A DNA stretch of 57,408 bases from Chromera velia (lineage: Eukaryota), in NCBI GenBank assembly GCA_018398765.1, contig JAHBMJ010000089.1, forward strand, positions 1-57,408, given 5' to 3'. The first letter of the stretch is position 1; each line of letters opens with the position of its first letter. The translations under genes were made by a program, and so were the position numbers. Under the pieces are notes generated by a model. That model was not told the DNA's origin and did no database searches. It saw only the letters and a program-made list of their open reading frames with translations. Below are positions 35,521 to 43,800 of this stretch, piece after piece.

Positions 35521-36434
35521 CTACGTGCTGCGGTGATCGTAATTTTTCCCCACCATGCACTCTAGCTAATCAACCAGTCTTTTAAGCACATTTGAGCAGA
35601 TTTGCACAGGAGTAACGATTTTAAATGCTTTAAAAGACTCTAAATTGCTTCAAATAACCTAGTTTTACTTTATAATAAAGCTAAAATATAGTGAAGTGTT
35701 TTAAATGTCACTTTAGATTCCACTAAGTTCTACTTAAGAGTCTACTCTGTTTTTTGACTGATTTAATTAAATCACACTTATGTGTGAAAAAAAGAGTCGT
35801 AAATCGCATGTTTACGGTGTTTTGTGCGGCTTGACATACGTCGGAGGGCAGCGTTATAGCCGCTGTGGACTCTGCATATACAGTGTCATACATGCATGAT
35901 GTTGTGTGTTGGAATTGCGGTTGTTCGTCTGGCATGTCAGGATTGGGAGTATGCGTATTGGTACTGCGGCTTGTGCCAGGACGATTTTAAATTATGCGCG
36001 CGACCGATCGTTCACGGGGTAGTATTTGAGCTATGCCGAGATTTATTAATTTTTCGCGCCGTACGTATATTTGGCATCGAATTGGCATGCATCCGTCTAT
36101 CTATACATGCGTACTAAGATACAGGCATGTGAGATTTCGAGTAGAAGGACTGCTCTTCCACTGAACACAGTGCTGCCGCCTACTAGCATAGTGCGGAGAC
36201 GGTTAGGACATATGTTACAGCTGTCTGAAGTAACGCGATTTCTAAGGTAACACTAATTGTACCTGTTTTCGAGGCGGCGTTTGGCCAAGAACTGGAGATT
36301 TTCACGATACACCTGTAGGCAATTGTCTTACCTTCAAGAGCAAGGTGTGGTTTGTTTCGTAAGCAGAACTGTAGGCAGAAAGGTAGACACTCTCCTAGAA
36401 GTTCGTTTGAAAGTAGGATCTGTAGCTTTGCGCA

Positions 36435-38012
36435 ATGAGTGGACAGTGGGACGACGAGTTGGGAGCACTGCCGGCCATTCCGGTGGACAGGGAGGCAGCC
36501 CTCCAGATGCGTGGGCAGGCGGGTTCCGTGCAGGGAAGGAGAAAGGCAGTTGTGGTGGAGATGAGGGATGGAGAGAATATGCAGGCGGCGCTGGAGAGGG
36601 CAAGGGCGGGGTTGGCGGCACAAGTGATGGACGTGTACAACTTCTAGGGAGGAGGTGGTGCAAAGAGCCTGCTCCTGCAGGCGATACCCAAGAACCAGAT
36701 GAAGCAGATCGAGGCCGTGGATAAGAACTCCCATCTGCACGAGTTTACGTGCATGGTGGCGAGGTCCGTTGATGCAAACAAGCTCTGGCACCCGTCTTTT
36801 CAGTTCAAACTGGACGGGAGGACCCGAAATCCGGCATACTCGCCCGGACTAGCATTTGTCAGGGAGGCGATGATATCCGGGGCTCACTTTGGGTGTGACT
36901 TCCTCGATATCCCCTTGAAGGGGCCCTTCAGGGCTTTGAAGAGGGAGATGTACCCGGCAGGAGGGGTGGGGCAGAAGGAGTTCGAAGGAGCGGTGGAGGC
37001 AATGGTGAATGAGATTGGTGGGAAGTACATCAGCTTCCATAGGCTGGTGGACTTTATTTTCATGATGCTCCCTAGTGGGGAGTCGGGGGAAAGGATGATT
37101 AGGGGGATAGTGAAGGCCTGCAGGGCTTCGTCTCCGCTGCAGTTCACAAATCATGTGACTGCATTGGCGAGACAGTGGGAGCTTCGGGCCCAGGGGACGG
37201 GGTCGGGTGGGCTGCCGAGAGGCCTGACACCGACGGCTCCACTCGGGGGGGGTGCAGAGATGGGCATGGGCGGGAGTACAAGTATAAGTCTAAATTGGGG
37301 GAGTCACACAGACGTGAGGAAGGGCAGTTCAACAACGATGGCCGCAGCAGCAGCAGCAGGAGGGGGGGGAGGCCATCTGGTTCCCCTACCAGCAGGTCCT
37401 CAGGTGCCTATCGTGATCGTGGGGGAGGACATGGCCCAGCCGGGCGCAGATCAAGACATGCCACAGGTAATGGGGGGGGGGAGTATCACGGGGTTGGAGG
37501 GATTTGCGGCAGCTGCCGCCGCGCCTGGGGTGAGACCCCTGTCTGCTAAGAGGAGGAGAGAACAAGCGGATGAAGGGGATGGGGGCATGAATGGGGGGGG
37601 GAATGGAGGAGGGGCGGTGGATGCAAAGAGCAGAGGGACCGGAGGGGATAGATCGGGGTTTGTCTCCCCAGTGAACATGATACCTAGGTATGTCAAACAG
37701 CCTGGGAATGTACTTCGGGGCTTAGGCCTTGAACCCCCGGGGAAAGGATCCGATGACAGGATCTCCTTTGGCAATCTGCTGAAGGAGGCACCGATGTTTA
37801 GGGATGGGGAGATGCAAGCAGTCGTCGAGTCGTCGAAGCTGATAAAAATCGGCATCAAGGGGGTAGAAGAGAGTGTGGCGAGGAGGGATCTGGTACAGTT
37901 CCTTGCTGACTGCGGGGTGGGCAACATTTCAGATGATGCGGACATCCAGGCCCTCGTGTTCGGGGTAGCGTTGGCCCTATGGAAAGGAAAGGGCGGCCAG
38001 GGCGGTGCTTGA
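36435..38012 (+). pseudogene. 5' ORF (ORF1 or N-terminal region) of the Penelope-like element
   Basis: ATG 36435, one in-frame TAG at 36645, TGA at 38010. Gly/Ala-rich middle, no recognised domain. The frame stays open after the TGA up to the N gap at 38096. Confidence 0.65.
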
Positions 38013-40868: not shown

Positions 40869-43800
40869 ATATGTTTACATGTGTATCTTCCTTATTTCGA
40901 TTCTTTTTGTCCTATTGATCTTCGATCGAACGTCTCTTTTACGTAGCACACAGAGCCAGAAGCGATAGAAAAAAGACAGTGGCGAGACCGAAGGGGGGGG
41001 TCGCGCATGATGTTATGTATTGGAATTGCGGTTGCTCGTCTGGCATATCAGGATTGGGAGTATGCGCATTGGTACTGCGGCTTGTGCCAGGACGATTTTA
41101 AATTGTGCGCGCGACCGATCATTCACGGGGTAGTGTTTGAGCCATGCCGAGATTTATTGATTTTTCGCGCCGTACGTGTATTTGGCATCGAATTGGCATA
41201 CATCCGTCTATCTATACATGCGTACTAAGATACAGGCATGTGAGATTTCGAGTAGAAGGACTGTTCTTCCACTGAACACAGTGCTGCCGCCTCCTAGCAT
41301 AGTGCGGAGACGGTTAGGACATACGTTACAGCTGTCTGAAGTAACGCGATTTCTAAGGTAACACTAAATGAAATGCCAAGAACAAACCTTGTATAACCCC
41401 GTGAGAAGAACAACTGCGCGCAAACTCATGTAAAACTATACAGCGCAACCTTAGCCAAGCCGAAACTGTTAAGCCATGTCCCGCCTCATTGCACATGTAG
41501 ACTACCAGCATCTCCCTTGGTATCTTCCTTGGGATTGTAACACTTCTGAGCAGCAGTTTGTACCTAAACTACTGCATGCCCCTTTCTTGCTCTTCGGAGC
41601 CTCTTCCCCAATTATACAAGTGCTACTAGGGGTACTAGTATGGGTAGCCGTTCATTTTACTTTGTTTTTTCTTACTCTCTCGGTTCTTTCTAGCCTTGTT
41701 GCTTCCCATCTGCTGCGAGTGAGCTAGCAAATGAGATGAGTGAATAAATGAGTGAGGTCAGTGAATTATGAGTGACTAAGTGAATGGTGAATAACAGTCT
41801 GAACATGATCGAAGTTCAACGACTCTGAAGACTTCAATTAACTTTGAAAGTCTAGGATCACTTCAATTTTTGTCTGACAATTTCATCACACCTAAGTTAC
41901 TCTAACTATTTCATCACACCTATTGTGACACAATTATTTGTATCACTAGTACTAGTGTATAAGGTATTGTGTCACAATTTGAATTGTGTTATACTATAGT
42001 TTCAGTGTAGTTCTTTCAAACCGATATATGAAAATTGATGTCAATTTTTGAAAGTGTACCAAAAATTCACATCGATATCAATTTTTAATATACTTTTCGG
42101 GTAGTACACTTTTATAGAGTAAGTTATAAGCCTTTTTTTATTTAGTGCATAGTACACACTGCATACCAGCTCTAAATTATTAACCTAGAACTTTGAACAT
42201 CTGCTAATTCCGGTTTGGAATCGGCAGGACTGAGCTAGAGAACCTTAAAAACGTGATAGAAAGCACTTGAGGTTCGTAGAAGGAGTTCTGAAGGCTTTGG
42301 ATTCTAGTAGACGGATGTGTATGTTCAGACTACTTCGATCCTGGCTGCGCAACATTTCGACTCAGAGATGAATCTTAAGATGTCTTCGCGTGTGCATGCA
42401 TGCAAATTCGATCAACCGGTGATGTGTAGCGTGCGTGTCTCAGGGCCCCGCAAATTTAGGCATATTTGGTCCGGGAAAGCAGAATGTCTTTATCGCTTTT
42501 ATAGAATGACTTTGTGGGGCCAGGCACATTTCTGCCTTTTGGGATATCCTTTTGCTGAATCTTTAATGGCTCATATCTCCTGAACAGTAGCGATGCAAAG
42601 GGTGATTTAATAACATATTTAGCCATCTCCATCATCTCCACAACTTTCGAATCGGGTCACAACTGCCTTCTAGGACCGCCTCTCAAAAAGCCCCGGCTCT
42701 TTCTATTCTTTCTTTTCTATAGTCTATTCTTTCTTTTCTCTCCCTCTGTCTAGCTGCCGGGGTCCTTGGGCCATGCGTCCCCAATCCCGGCCTCATGGCA
42801 TGGGATGGCCGGCCCTCGGCCCGAAGCGCGCGGGTACTACGACTCTGCACATCATTGTTACATCAATGCTCTTGTCAATACTAATAATGCTAATAATGCT
42901 ACGGCATCTAGTACAGCATTGCTACTGAGTTATATTGAGTTATATAGGCCCAGGCTTATCCGGACTTCAACCTGGGTTTCAGCCCGGACCCGGCTATATA
43001 AAAGGCTATAAAAGGCATTCAAGTTATTTAACATTAGCATTAATTAGCTTTGATAGCTATATAGTGATAAAATAGTATCACTTCTAGTATTACTTTTTAG
43101 TATTTTTCAGTTATCTATTTATTATTAATCAATGATTATAGTGAAATTATGGTATGGTAAGCTATAGGCTCTCTCCTGCCTATTCAACTCATCATATAGT
43201 ATTTGACCACACTTCATCTACTTATACTTACTCCCTGCCTCCAGGAGAGTGTTGGTTTATTGATTCGTCCTCTTACCATCAATCTCGTCCCTTATCTTTC
43301 TCTTCTACAGTAGTGTTGCACTCAAGGTTGCTTTTCTAGTCGGTAACAGGTCTAGTCTACTGGCAATTGCAAGTAACCGGTAATGGTCTCAGTCTGCCTT
43401 CCTTTTACCGACAAAAAAAATAATAAAAATTAGGATCCCCCAAAAAAAATTTCGCCTGCGGCGCCAACCTTCAAAAACAGGTTTTTAAGTATTTATTTTC
43501 ATTTGAAAAGCCAATTCACACACAAAAAAAAATAAAGAAAATATTAAAAAAATATAAATTTTTAACTGCTTCACCCCTATAAGTGGCAAAAAGTTTTAAC
43601 AGCTCTATGACAGCGTCTGTCCAACAACTACTCTCTTTTTTGACTTTGCTTCATCTCTCACTGTTCTGCTTCTCTGTATATCAGGCCTTGACCGTCGTTA
43701 GAGAGCGATTAAAATAAAAGACGGAAAAAGTCTACTTCTTTCTGAAAAATGAGGAGATGGTAAGCCTGCGGCTCTGTACTTATGCAGCCCCTGCCTAGTT

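What the first reader, a model, noticed from the sequence alone, without database searches (positions are those of the whole stretch)
35894..41367. RIP-like CpA-to-TpA hypermutation between two 363-bp repeats in an apparently non-fungal genome
Seen: manual alignment of 35894-36256 against 41005-41367 gives 15 differences and no indels. Fourteen are transitions: 10 are CA/TG in one copy and TA in the other, 2 are at CpG and 2 at CpT. Both copies and both strands are hit, and many CpGs (e.g. GCGCGCGACCG) are intact, so ordinary CpG decay does not explain it. Established: this is the dinucleotide signature of Neurospora-type repeat-induced point mutation, described in fungi. Inference: the direction of change, the alveolate identity, and a repeat-targeted CpA methylation/deamination or deaminase defence system.
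Basis: partly seen in the sequence, partly recalled or inferred. Interest (0 to 1): 0.92.

Follow-up and report, generated by a model that had tools for sequence, protein, structure and literature searches.

The report
C-to-T hypermutation of Chromera transposons
The two 363-base repeats are the ends of a broken, likely Penelope-type jumping gene in the alga Chromera velia, whose copies show C-to-T changes about forty times more often than other cytosine changes, as often before G as before A, which is likely the scar of transposon-targeted DNA methylation rather than fungal repeat-induced point mutation.

Summary
The count is right: 15 differences, 10 at CpA/TpA, 2 CpG, 2 CpT, 1 transversion (p=0.003). 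The genome is Chromera velia. The repeats are the pseudo-LTRs of a likely N-terminal-GIY-YIG Penelope-like element. Against the family majority, 13 of 14 transitions are C>T. CpA exclusivity does not generalise. In 24 proteins from other copies, 135 of 158 classified changes are C>T, at 4.9% (CpA), 5.5% (CpG), 1.7% (CpC) and 1.3% (CpT), 41 times the C:G transversion rate. Both strands are hit, without significant clustering. No 1-kb window meets RIP indices (0 of 92). A host kinase keeps C at 87 of 93 synonymous CpA-context sites, so genes look spared. Best reading: transposon-targeted CG plus CA methylation followed by deamination; C. velia has 5 DNA-methylase genes. Methylation itself was not measured, and single-copy mutation rates could not be tested directly. 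The scan noted similar decay in fungal genomes, none in Chromera.

The parts
35894..36256 (+). Left pseudo-LTR: 363-bp copy of the element's 3' end
   Evidence: Summed contig depth in X1 about 10,000-22,000 against 36 for the contig across the unique junction, so a high-copy sequence (a rough indication only). Differences from the family majority: 10 CpA>TpA (6 private, 4 shared with the right copy), 2 CpG>TpG (1 shared), 1 shared T>C.
36257..36700 (+). 5' body of the element, with the start of ORF1 and a TAG stop at 36645-36647 that arose by a CpA>TpA change
   Evidence: 12 majority-different sites: 3 CpA, 3 CpG, 2 CpC, 3 CpT, 1 transversion; stop context.
36648..38012 (+). ORF1 of the element (454 aa stop to stop; Gly-rich; no Pfam family)
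   Evidence: relatives found only in C. velia, 72-93% identical; clusters of 15 and 7 members plus singletons.
38096..38284 (.). Assembly gap (N) that hides most of the predicted N-terminal endonuclease region
   Evidence: Paralogs P0029, P0028 and P0001 carry, directly upstream of the part matching 38286 onward, a YLG-ST...R..QH...E...N pattern read by eye as GIY-YIG.
38286..40868 (+). Broken ORF2: linker with a CxC motif, DK-like motif, RT with YMDD, C-terminal helical part; stops at 39075 and 39555, and a frame change near 39726
   Evidence: ESM Atlas feature hits 0.91-0.97, named ones PF26215 HTH_animal and PF00078 RVT_1 at 13-69% of members. No Pfam HMM hit.
41005..41367 (+). Right pseudo-LTR = 3' end of the full-length copy
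   Evidence: Loose ends at 41367 continue into varied flanks in 8 X1 and 7 X4 contigs. Private changes: 4 CpA, 1 CpG, 1 CpT, 1 transversion (column 196 seen directly; the others inferred from the absence of a row).
28738..29391 (+). Independent 200-bp tandem repeat, one of six other pairs used for the spectrum
   Evidence: Units 1 vs 2: CpA 9/27, CpT 4/30, CpG 1/3, CpC 0/8; 14 transitions, 11 transversions; three-way polarisation 9 C>T at CpA vs 4 T>C at TpA.
32741..33289 (.). Independent direct and inverted repeat cluster used for the spectrum
   Evidence: 22 transitions, 4 transversions; CpA 9/22, CpG 3/12, CpT 5/22, CpC 2/17.
11300..15207 (+). Host protein-kinase gene, used for taxonomy and as the non-repeat control
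   Evidence: First exon 100% identical over 88 aa to a C. velia CCMP2878 protein in a one-member cluster. Introns GC 0.49, TpA o/e 0.39, CpA o/e 1.25, CpG o/e 0.58. Synonymous sites keep C in 87 of 93 CpA contexts, 48 of 118 CpG contexts.

Best explanation
Transposon copies in Chromera velia accumulate C-to-T changes on both strands at CpG and CpA about equally and at CpC and CpT about a third as often, likely because a host methyltransferase marks repeats with 5-methylcytosine in CG and non-CG contexts and the marked bases deaminate to thymine over many divisions. Shown: the spectrum, its direction and its size relative to transversions. Inferred: that methylation is the cause, that genes are spared (from composition only), and that the process is gradual rather than a single burst. 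The 363-bp pair are pseudo-LTRs of one likely Penelope-like insertion; their CpA-heavy, CpG-light tally is the family spectrum plus selection of an extreme pair, possibly plus real protection of CpG in the pseudo-LTR (CpG o/e 1.29 there against 0.53 in ORF1).
For: Spectrum in 24 proteins of other copies: C>T 135, T>C 13, transversions 10 of 158 classified; per-site CpA 39/793, CpG 40/722, CpC 41/2388, CpT 15/1117. C>T is 41 times the C:G transversion rate per possible change (CI 21-91) and 10 times T>C (CI 5.7-19). DNA level: 54 C>T vs 3 T>C polarised changes in this element; 186 transition vs 24 transversion places in X1. Six other pairs: CpA 33/133, CpG 12/41, CpT 15/107, CpC 10/83. Baseline: P. 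falciparum Ts:Tv 1.13 with no context effect seen in 24 events (PMC5389722, passages). The measured spectrum would settle at 10% GC with TpA o/e 1.2; partial decay gives GC 0.38, TpA o/e 1.19, like the AT-rich intergenic zones (GC 0.27-0.44, TpA o/e 0.67-1.21) and unlike kinase introns (GC 0.49, 0.39). C. velia has 5 DNA_methylase-domain genes, Vitrella 0 (PMC5890265 supplement row); TE loads about 30 Mb vs 1.5 Mb (PMC4501334, passage). The order CG, CA, CC, CT matches Dim2 5mC site preference in Zymoseptoria TEs (PMC8016269, passages).
Against: No methylation data for C. velia were found, and the class of the five methylase genes is unknown; some may be RNA methylases or transposon-borne. The non-repeat control is compositional, and selection or biased gene conversion could keep genes GC-rich and TpA-poor. 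AT-rich zones may be natively AT-rich elements; only two short flanks were shown to be multi-copy. In Zymoseptoria the same 5mC pattern gave over 98% CA mutations, not CG=CA. The pseudo-LTR tally (14 CpA, 3 CpG) still departs from family rates (p=0.003-0.007 before selection). The adjacent high-copy flank had 0 CpA among 5 C>T changes. The family spectrum rests on amino-acid changes mapped on the window's codons, from gene models that avoid stops.
Confidence: 0.55

Rival explanations
1. The spectrum is genome-wide: C. velia has a strong C-to-T bias at CpG and CpA everywhere, visible only where selection is relaxed, while selection or GC-biased gene conversion keeps genes and introns GC-rich and TpA-poor.
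For: G:C>A:T bias is known in another alveolate (PMC5389722). All repeat types examined show a similar spectrum.
Against: Kinase introns are 49% GC against a predicted equilibrium of 10%, with TpA o/e 0.39 against 1.2. Synonymous CpA-context sites keep C in 162 of 190 cases in two host genes, more than CpC/CpT contexts (p=1e-10). A 41-fold excess over transversions is far above the P. falciparum baseline.
Confidence: 0.2
2. A true RIP analogue: a homology-sensing process that detects duplicated DNA, more efficiently when closely linked, and mutates C to T in bursts, mainly at CpA, on top of ordinary CpG decay.
For: Linked pseudo-LTRs carry 14 CpA of 18 C>T events against 13 of 36 in the body (p=0.008). 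Left copy CpA 10/60 vs adjacent body 3/64 (p=0.04). CpG plus CpA signatures occur in some fungi (Tuber, Aspergillus; PMC4352252, passages).
Against: Total C>T load of the left repeat is not higher than the adjacent body (12/177 vs 11/255, p=0.28). Same-strand neighbours 65 of 111 vs 57 expected (p=0.068) and no excess of close events (45 vs 47). 0 of 92 1-kb windows meet even relaxed indices; element product 0.49-0.94, substrate 1.09-1.55 against thresholds >1.15 and <=0.75 (PMC7882544). Copies are only a few percent diverged and many keep long open frames.
Confidence: 0.12
3. A cytidine deaminase (AID/APOBEC-like) or an error-prone reverse transcriptase mutates the element during retrotransposition.
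For: Almost all changes are C>T; a purine before CpA is preferred (RCA 33/538 vs YCA 6/255, p=0.02), as an enzyme motif might produce.
Against: Both strands are hit at similar rates (G>A 74/3056, C>T 61/1964), whereas cDNA deamination gives one strand (own knowledge). Tandem and dispersed repeats outside this element show a similar spectrum. The two ends of one insertion differ by 4%, too much for one round of copying (inference). No close clusters.
Confidence: 0.08

Closest known systems
Dim2-dependent TE methylation and mitotic C>T mutation in Zymoseptoria tritici (PMC8016269; passages read)
   Same: C>T-dominated change in TEs; CpA is a hot context; 5mC preference CG, then CA and CC, least CT, which is the order of mutation rates seen here.
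   Different: There over 98% of C>T were at CA and CG was spared; here CG equals CA and CC/CT are also raised. The enzyme and the methylation are shown there and unmeasured here.
CpG plus CpA C>T signature in Tuber melanosporum and Aspergillus TEs, ascribed to methylation-deamination plus RID (PMC4352252; passages read)
   Same: Two hot dinucleotides, CpG and CpA, in TE copies.
   Different: Fungal; tied to RID/Masc1 genes. The class of the C. velia methylases is unknown.
Repeat-induced point mutation of Neurospora crassa and other Pezizomycotina (PMC4352252, PMC7882544, PMC9246332; passages read)
   Same: C:G>T:A changes in repeated DNA, CpA among the preferred contexts, premature stop codons in TE frames.
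   Different: No CpA dominance family-wide, no RIP-index-positive window, low density, no significant clustering; premeiotic timing and RID not shown.
Naiad/Chlamys N-terminal-endonuclease Penelope-like elements (PMC8557442; sections 5 and 9 and passages read)
   Same: Predicted N-terminal GIY-YIG before RT, CxC motif in the linker, DK-like motif, pseudo-LTRs from partial tandem insertion, depth rising toward the 3' end as expected from 5' truncation, no Rfam ribozyme match.
   Different: Alveolate host, not named in that paper's main text or its one held supplement; a separate 454-aa upstream ORF with relatives only in C. velia; motifs read by eye, no tree built.

Membership tests
RIP (Neurospora type) | C:G>T:A transitions dominate in repeated DNA | tested here: met
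   135 of 158 classified changes; 54 C>T vs 3 T>C.
RIP (Neurospora type) | CpA clearly preferred over CpG and other contexts | tested here: not met
   CpA 39/793 vs CpG 40/722, p=0.64; 33/133 vs 12/41, p=0.55. Met only in the 363-bp pair.
RIP (Neurospora type) | [quoted passage not shown] | tested here: not met
   0 of 92 1-kb windows, 2 of 94 500-bp windows at relaxed cut-offs 1.1/0.9; thresholds from PMC7882544.
RIP (Neurospora type) | Dense, strand-coordinated mutation in single passes (recalled feature) | tested here: inconclusive
   65 of 111 same-strand neighbours vs 57 +/- 5 expected, p=0.068; close pairs 45 vs 47. Missense sites only.
RIP (Neurospora type) | Triggered by homology; single-copy DNA spared | tested here: inconclusive
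   Host kinase composition shows no CpA drain, but no single-copy mutations were observable; linked-repeat effect mixed.
RIP (Neurospora type) | RID/Masc1-class methyltransferase | not tested
   5 DNA_methylase genes of unstated class. PMC9998398 reports DNMT4 only in diatoms among MMETSP species; Chromera was not found in the 12 of 23 supplement files searched.
RIP (Neurospora type) | Premeiotic timing in the sexual cycle | not testable with these tools
   Needs crosses or staged sequencing.
Methylation-driven TE decay (Dim2/MIP-like) | 5mC on TEs in the contexts that mutate | not testable with these tools
   No methylome found in the library.
Methylation-driven TE decay (Dim2/MIP-like) | C>T on both strands, dispersed, with CpG among the top contexts | tested here: met
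Methylation-driven TE decay (Dim2/MIP-like) | Host encodes cytosine methyltransferase domains | tested here: inconclusive
   Count of 5 from a supplement row; sequences and activity not examined.
Plant-type CHG methylation | CAG, CTG and CCG raised over CHH | tested here: not met
   CAG 12/233 vs CAH 27/560; CTG 2/308; CCG 6/494.
Naiad/Chlamys Penelope-like elements | GIY-YIG endonuclease N-terminal to RT | tested here: inconclusive
   Motif pattern seen by eye in paralogs P0029/P0028/P0001 upstream of the RT-side match; no Pfam hit; hidden by the gap in the window.
Naiad/Chlamys Penelope-like elements | CxC motif between endonuclease and RT; DK motif | tested here: met
   CPC in the 38286-39077 frame and DRAKG in the 39078-39557 frame, matched by eye to the description in PMC8557442.
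Naiad/Chlamys Penelope-like elements | Pseudo-LTRs from partial tandem insertion, frequent 5' truncation | tested here: met
   Left repeat equals the 3' end; family contigs continue upstream of it with the right copy's upstream sequence; depth rises toward the 3' end and stops at 41367.
Naiad/Chlamys Penelope-like elements | RT groups with the clade in a phylogeny | not tested
   Only 5 relatives found among 1.84 billion representatives; no reference RTs in hand; fold failed (pLDDT 32).

The most novel reading that the evidence does not exclude
Chromera velia has its own repeat-directed mutator outside fungi: one of its five methyltransferase-domain proteins marks or directly deaminates CpA (with RCA preference) in transposons, most strongly in paired pseudo-LTRs, so that a photosynthetic relative of malaria parasites destroys its transposons by a RIP-like or mitotic Dim2-like route.
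Probability: 0.25. Interest if true: 0.88.

Novelty: new variant of a known kind. Interest (0 to 1): 0.52.

Why it matters
I found no account of cytosine methylation or repeat mutation in chromerids, and a 2022 review lists RIP as fungal and says mutagenic use of methylation may exist elsewhere (PMC9246332). A CG=CA C-to-T signature confined to transposons would predict non-CG methylation in a free-living relative of apicomplexans, with Vitrella (0 methylase genes, few TEs) as a natural negative control. That is testable at once with the public assembly and one nanopore run. The element would also extend N-terminal-endonuclease Penelope-like elements to alveolates. If the spectrum proves genome-wide, the result is still an unusually skewed mutation spectrum but not a defence system.

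Tried and rejected
No whole genome is held, so no RIPCAL-type survey or proteome search for methylases or deaminases was possible. Pattern scans for more Chromera DNA found nothing: metagenome contigs twice, genome contigs, viral contigs. TpA-erasing T>C as the source of the differences: rejected, TA is the derived state and T>C at TpA is 3/504. 6mA deamination: unlikely, direction is C>T and C. velia has no AMT1 (PMC12695648 supplement row). True LTR retrotransposon: no TG...CA ends or target-site duplication at the borders. Fungal or contaminant contig: rejected. Plant-type CHG context: not met. Structured RNA in the repeat: no Rfam match, fold z=-0.92. RT fold from one sequence failed; no solved-structure match; no Pfam match for ORF1 or ORF2. 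The ORF2 part stopped with an error (fewer than four copies per site), so the family spectrum is ORF1 only. The ankyrin protein is a one-member cluster, so duplicated host genes could not be tested. No listed run is on record as RNA: no evidence on expression. Supplements of PMC11244446 and 12 of 23 files of PMC9998398 did not name Chromera; the unsearched files may classify its methylases.
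Full report
Observation. The two stretches align over 363 columns with 15 substitutions and no gaps. Against opportunities of 56 CpA, 50 CpG, 38 CpT and 29 CpC sites, 10 of 14 at CpA has p=0.003.

Organism. The first exon of a kinase at 11300-11563 is 100% identical over 88 residues to a Chromera velia CCMP2878 protein. All five relatives of ORF1 and the one hit of the RT frame are C. velia proteins. The genome is alveolate, not fungal. No whole genome was available.

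What the repeats are. Between them lie a 454-aa ORF1, a gap, and a broken second frame with a CxC motif, a DK-like motif and YMDD. Paralogs carry a GIY-YIG-like pattern just upstream of the part matching 38286 onward (read by eye, no Pfam hit). Language-model neighbours of the RT frame carry HTH_animal and RVT_1 at 13-69% of members. This fits the Naiad/Chlamys Penelope-like elements, which have N-terminal GIY-YIG, CxC and pseudo-LTRs (PMC8557442, sections 5 and 9). Contig depth rises toward the 3' end and falls after 41367, where contigs run into varied flanks. The repeats are therefore most likely pseudo-LTRs of one insertion. Membership is likely, not proven: no tree was built.

Direction. 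I laid contigs of coded runs on 38290-41500 (40 of 292 rows shown) and 35560-36700 (40 of 57 rows shown). At the left repeat, the six TA/CpA sites and one CpG site where the left copy has T or A are minority letters. For columns 11, 15, 43, 117, 260 and 289 no row appears, and the per-kind totals of X4 and X2 (G>A), X2 (C>T) and X1, X4, X2 (A>C) leave no hidden row, so the right copy is derived; column 196 is seen directly. Thirteen of 14 transitions are C>T; column 31 is undetermined. Six further changes are shared by both copies: 4 CpA, 1 CpG, 1 T>C. The repeat thus holds 14 CpA events on 60 sites, 3 CpG on 52, 1 CpT on 37, 0 CpC on 28.

The CpA exclusivity does not extend to the rest. In the body of the same element, rows with a majority other letter (37 of the 40 rows had an X1 share of at least 0.8, three of them in the repeat; 12 rows at 36257-36700) give C>T at CpA 13, CpG 9, CpC 7, CpT 7; observed/expected 1.32, 1.38, 0.68, 0.75, p=0.31. 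The window's own ORF1 has 20 private missense sites: 9 CpG, 5 CpA, 3 CpC, 1 CpT, 1 transversion, 1 ambiguous. Six other repeat pairs (of 11 families aligned; five were left out as overlapping, very short or poorly aligned) give CpA 33/133, CpG 12/41, CpT 15/107, CpC 10/83, with 82 transitions and 27 transversions. The high-copy left flank has 5 C>T changes, none at CpA.

Family-wide spectrum. From the cluster members, 24 proteins aligned to ORF1; the window's own protein was left out. At 408 sites where the window has the majority residue, I mapped each minority residue to single-base changes of the window codon; 35 ambiguous and 4 multi-step changes and 21 window-private sites were set aside. 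Of 158 classified changes 135 are C>T, 13 T>C, 10 transversions. Rates: CpA 39/793, CpG 40/722, CpC 41/2388, CpT 15/1117; counting each distinct change once gives 30/58, 32/50, 35/178, 13/84. C>T is 41 times the C:G transversion rate per possible change (CI 21-91), CpC/CpT alone 24 times; CpA/CpG is 0.89 (CI 0.56-1.42) and CpA/CpY 3.1 (CI 2.0-4.7). Both strands are hit (74/3056, 61/1964), CHG is not preferred, and RCA exceeds YCA (33/538 vs 6/255, p=0.02). Same-strand neighbours are 65 of 111 against 57 expected (p=0.068); close pairs are not in excess. For scale, P. falciparum has Ts:Tv 1.13 (PMC5389722, passages). Limits: missense sites only, gene models that avoid stops, window codons as context.

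How unusual is the pair? Under the family rates, 10 of 14 has p=0.026, about 0.17 as best of seven pairs; the unselected shared events (4 of 5) have p=0.12; combined p=0.10. All 18 events together give p=0.003, and the repeat differs from this copy's ORF1 in its CpA:CpG split (p=0.01-0.02). The repeat is CpG-rich (o/e 1.29 vs 0.53 in ORF1). A local protection of CpG or concentration of CpA change in the pseudo-LTR is possible but unproven.

Are genes spared? Only composition could be tested. Kinase introns have GC 0.49, TpA o/e 0.39, CpA o/e 1.25, CpG o/e 0.58; repeat arrays and AT-rich intergenic stretches have GC 0.27-0.44 and TpA o/e 0.67-1.21. At synonymous sites the kinase keeps C in 87 of 93 CpA contexts, 48 of 118 CpG, 60 of 118 CpC and 89 of 126 CpT; the ankyrin gene in 75 of 97 CpA contexts. 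The measured spectrum would equilibrate at 10% GC with TpA o/e 1.2, and partial decay of random sequence gives GC 0.38 and TpA o/e 1.19. Genes fit CpG loss without CpA loss; intergenic zones fit the TE spectrum. Selection or gene conversion could also produce this contrast. RIP indices are not met: 0 of 92 1-kb windows (thresholds PMC7882544).

Mechanism. The simplest cause is 5-methylcytosine on transposons in CG and CA, less in CC and CT, followed by deamination (inference, 0.55). C. velia has 5 DNA_methylase-domain genes and Vitrella none (PMC5890265, supplement row); their class is unknown. The context order matches Dim2 methylation in Zymoseptoria TEs, although mutation there was over 98% CA (PMC8016269, passages). 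Rivals: a genome-wide bias masked in genes (0.2), true homology-triggered RIP (0.12), a deaminase or RT error (0.08).

Novelty. Searches found no paper holding both Chromera velia and repeat-induced point mutation, and only irrelevant hits for Chromera with 5mC, DNMT or bisulfite (listings, with passages of one). A search for RIP-like processes outside fungi returned three papers, none reporting one by their listings; the review among them calls RIP fungal (PMC9246332, passages). The library lacks most subscription papers. The genome paper describes TE content without Penelope elements (PMC4501334, passages). Earlier notes of this scan report similar methylation-type decay in fungi and a TpA-erasing process in diatoms, nothing in this genome. 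Verdict: a real, strong C>T hypermutation of transposons in a chromerid, with CpA as hot as CpG; it resembles methylation-driven decay, and fails the tested defining features of Neurospora-type RIP.

Noticed in passing
window 35894-41367: Likely the first N-terminal-GIY-YIG (Chlamys-like) Penelope element noted in an alveolate, with a separate 454-aa upstream ORF. Weak RT-side relatives come from a Prorocentrum lima protein (45% over 96 aa) and an MMETSP transcript; a metagenome protein is 92% identical.
   Followed up: partly
window 11300-15207: Extreme TpA avoidance in a host gene: exon TpA o/e 0.19, intron 0.39; synonymous CpA-context sites are C in 87 of 93 cases. Selection or a TpA-removing process in genic DNA could cause it.
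   Followed up: partly
window 38729 to about 39925: Gene models of two other copies (P0001, P0029) join these two points in the same way: a shared internal deletion or an intron.
   Followed up: no
window 35560-35700 and 41422-41500: Flanks are other repeat families; the left one has summed depth up to 37,000 in X1, so the element sits in a nest of repeats.
   Followed up: partly
window 45353-46684: hAT-like transposase (zf-C17orf113 and DUF4371 matches), with short AAATTCAC-type arrays at 43950-44210 and 49094-49174 that may mark its ends.
   Followed up: no
window 53212-54825 (-): Intronless 537-aa ankyrin-repeat gene, a one-member cluster at 90% identity.
   Followed up: partly
window 1040-1656 and 1879-2495: 617-bp duplication, 99.8% identical, on both sides of an assembly gap: probably an assembly artefact.
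   Followed up: no
window 33034-33285: 250-bp imperfect palindrome inside a cluster of related direct and inverted repeats, possibly a nest of non-autonomous DNA transposons.
   Followed up: no
window 4001-4500 and 18200-19100: The most TpA-rich stretches (TpA/ApT 1.4-1.6, substrate index 0.84-0.87), the closest to RIP-like indices; copy number untested.
   Followed up: partly
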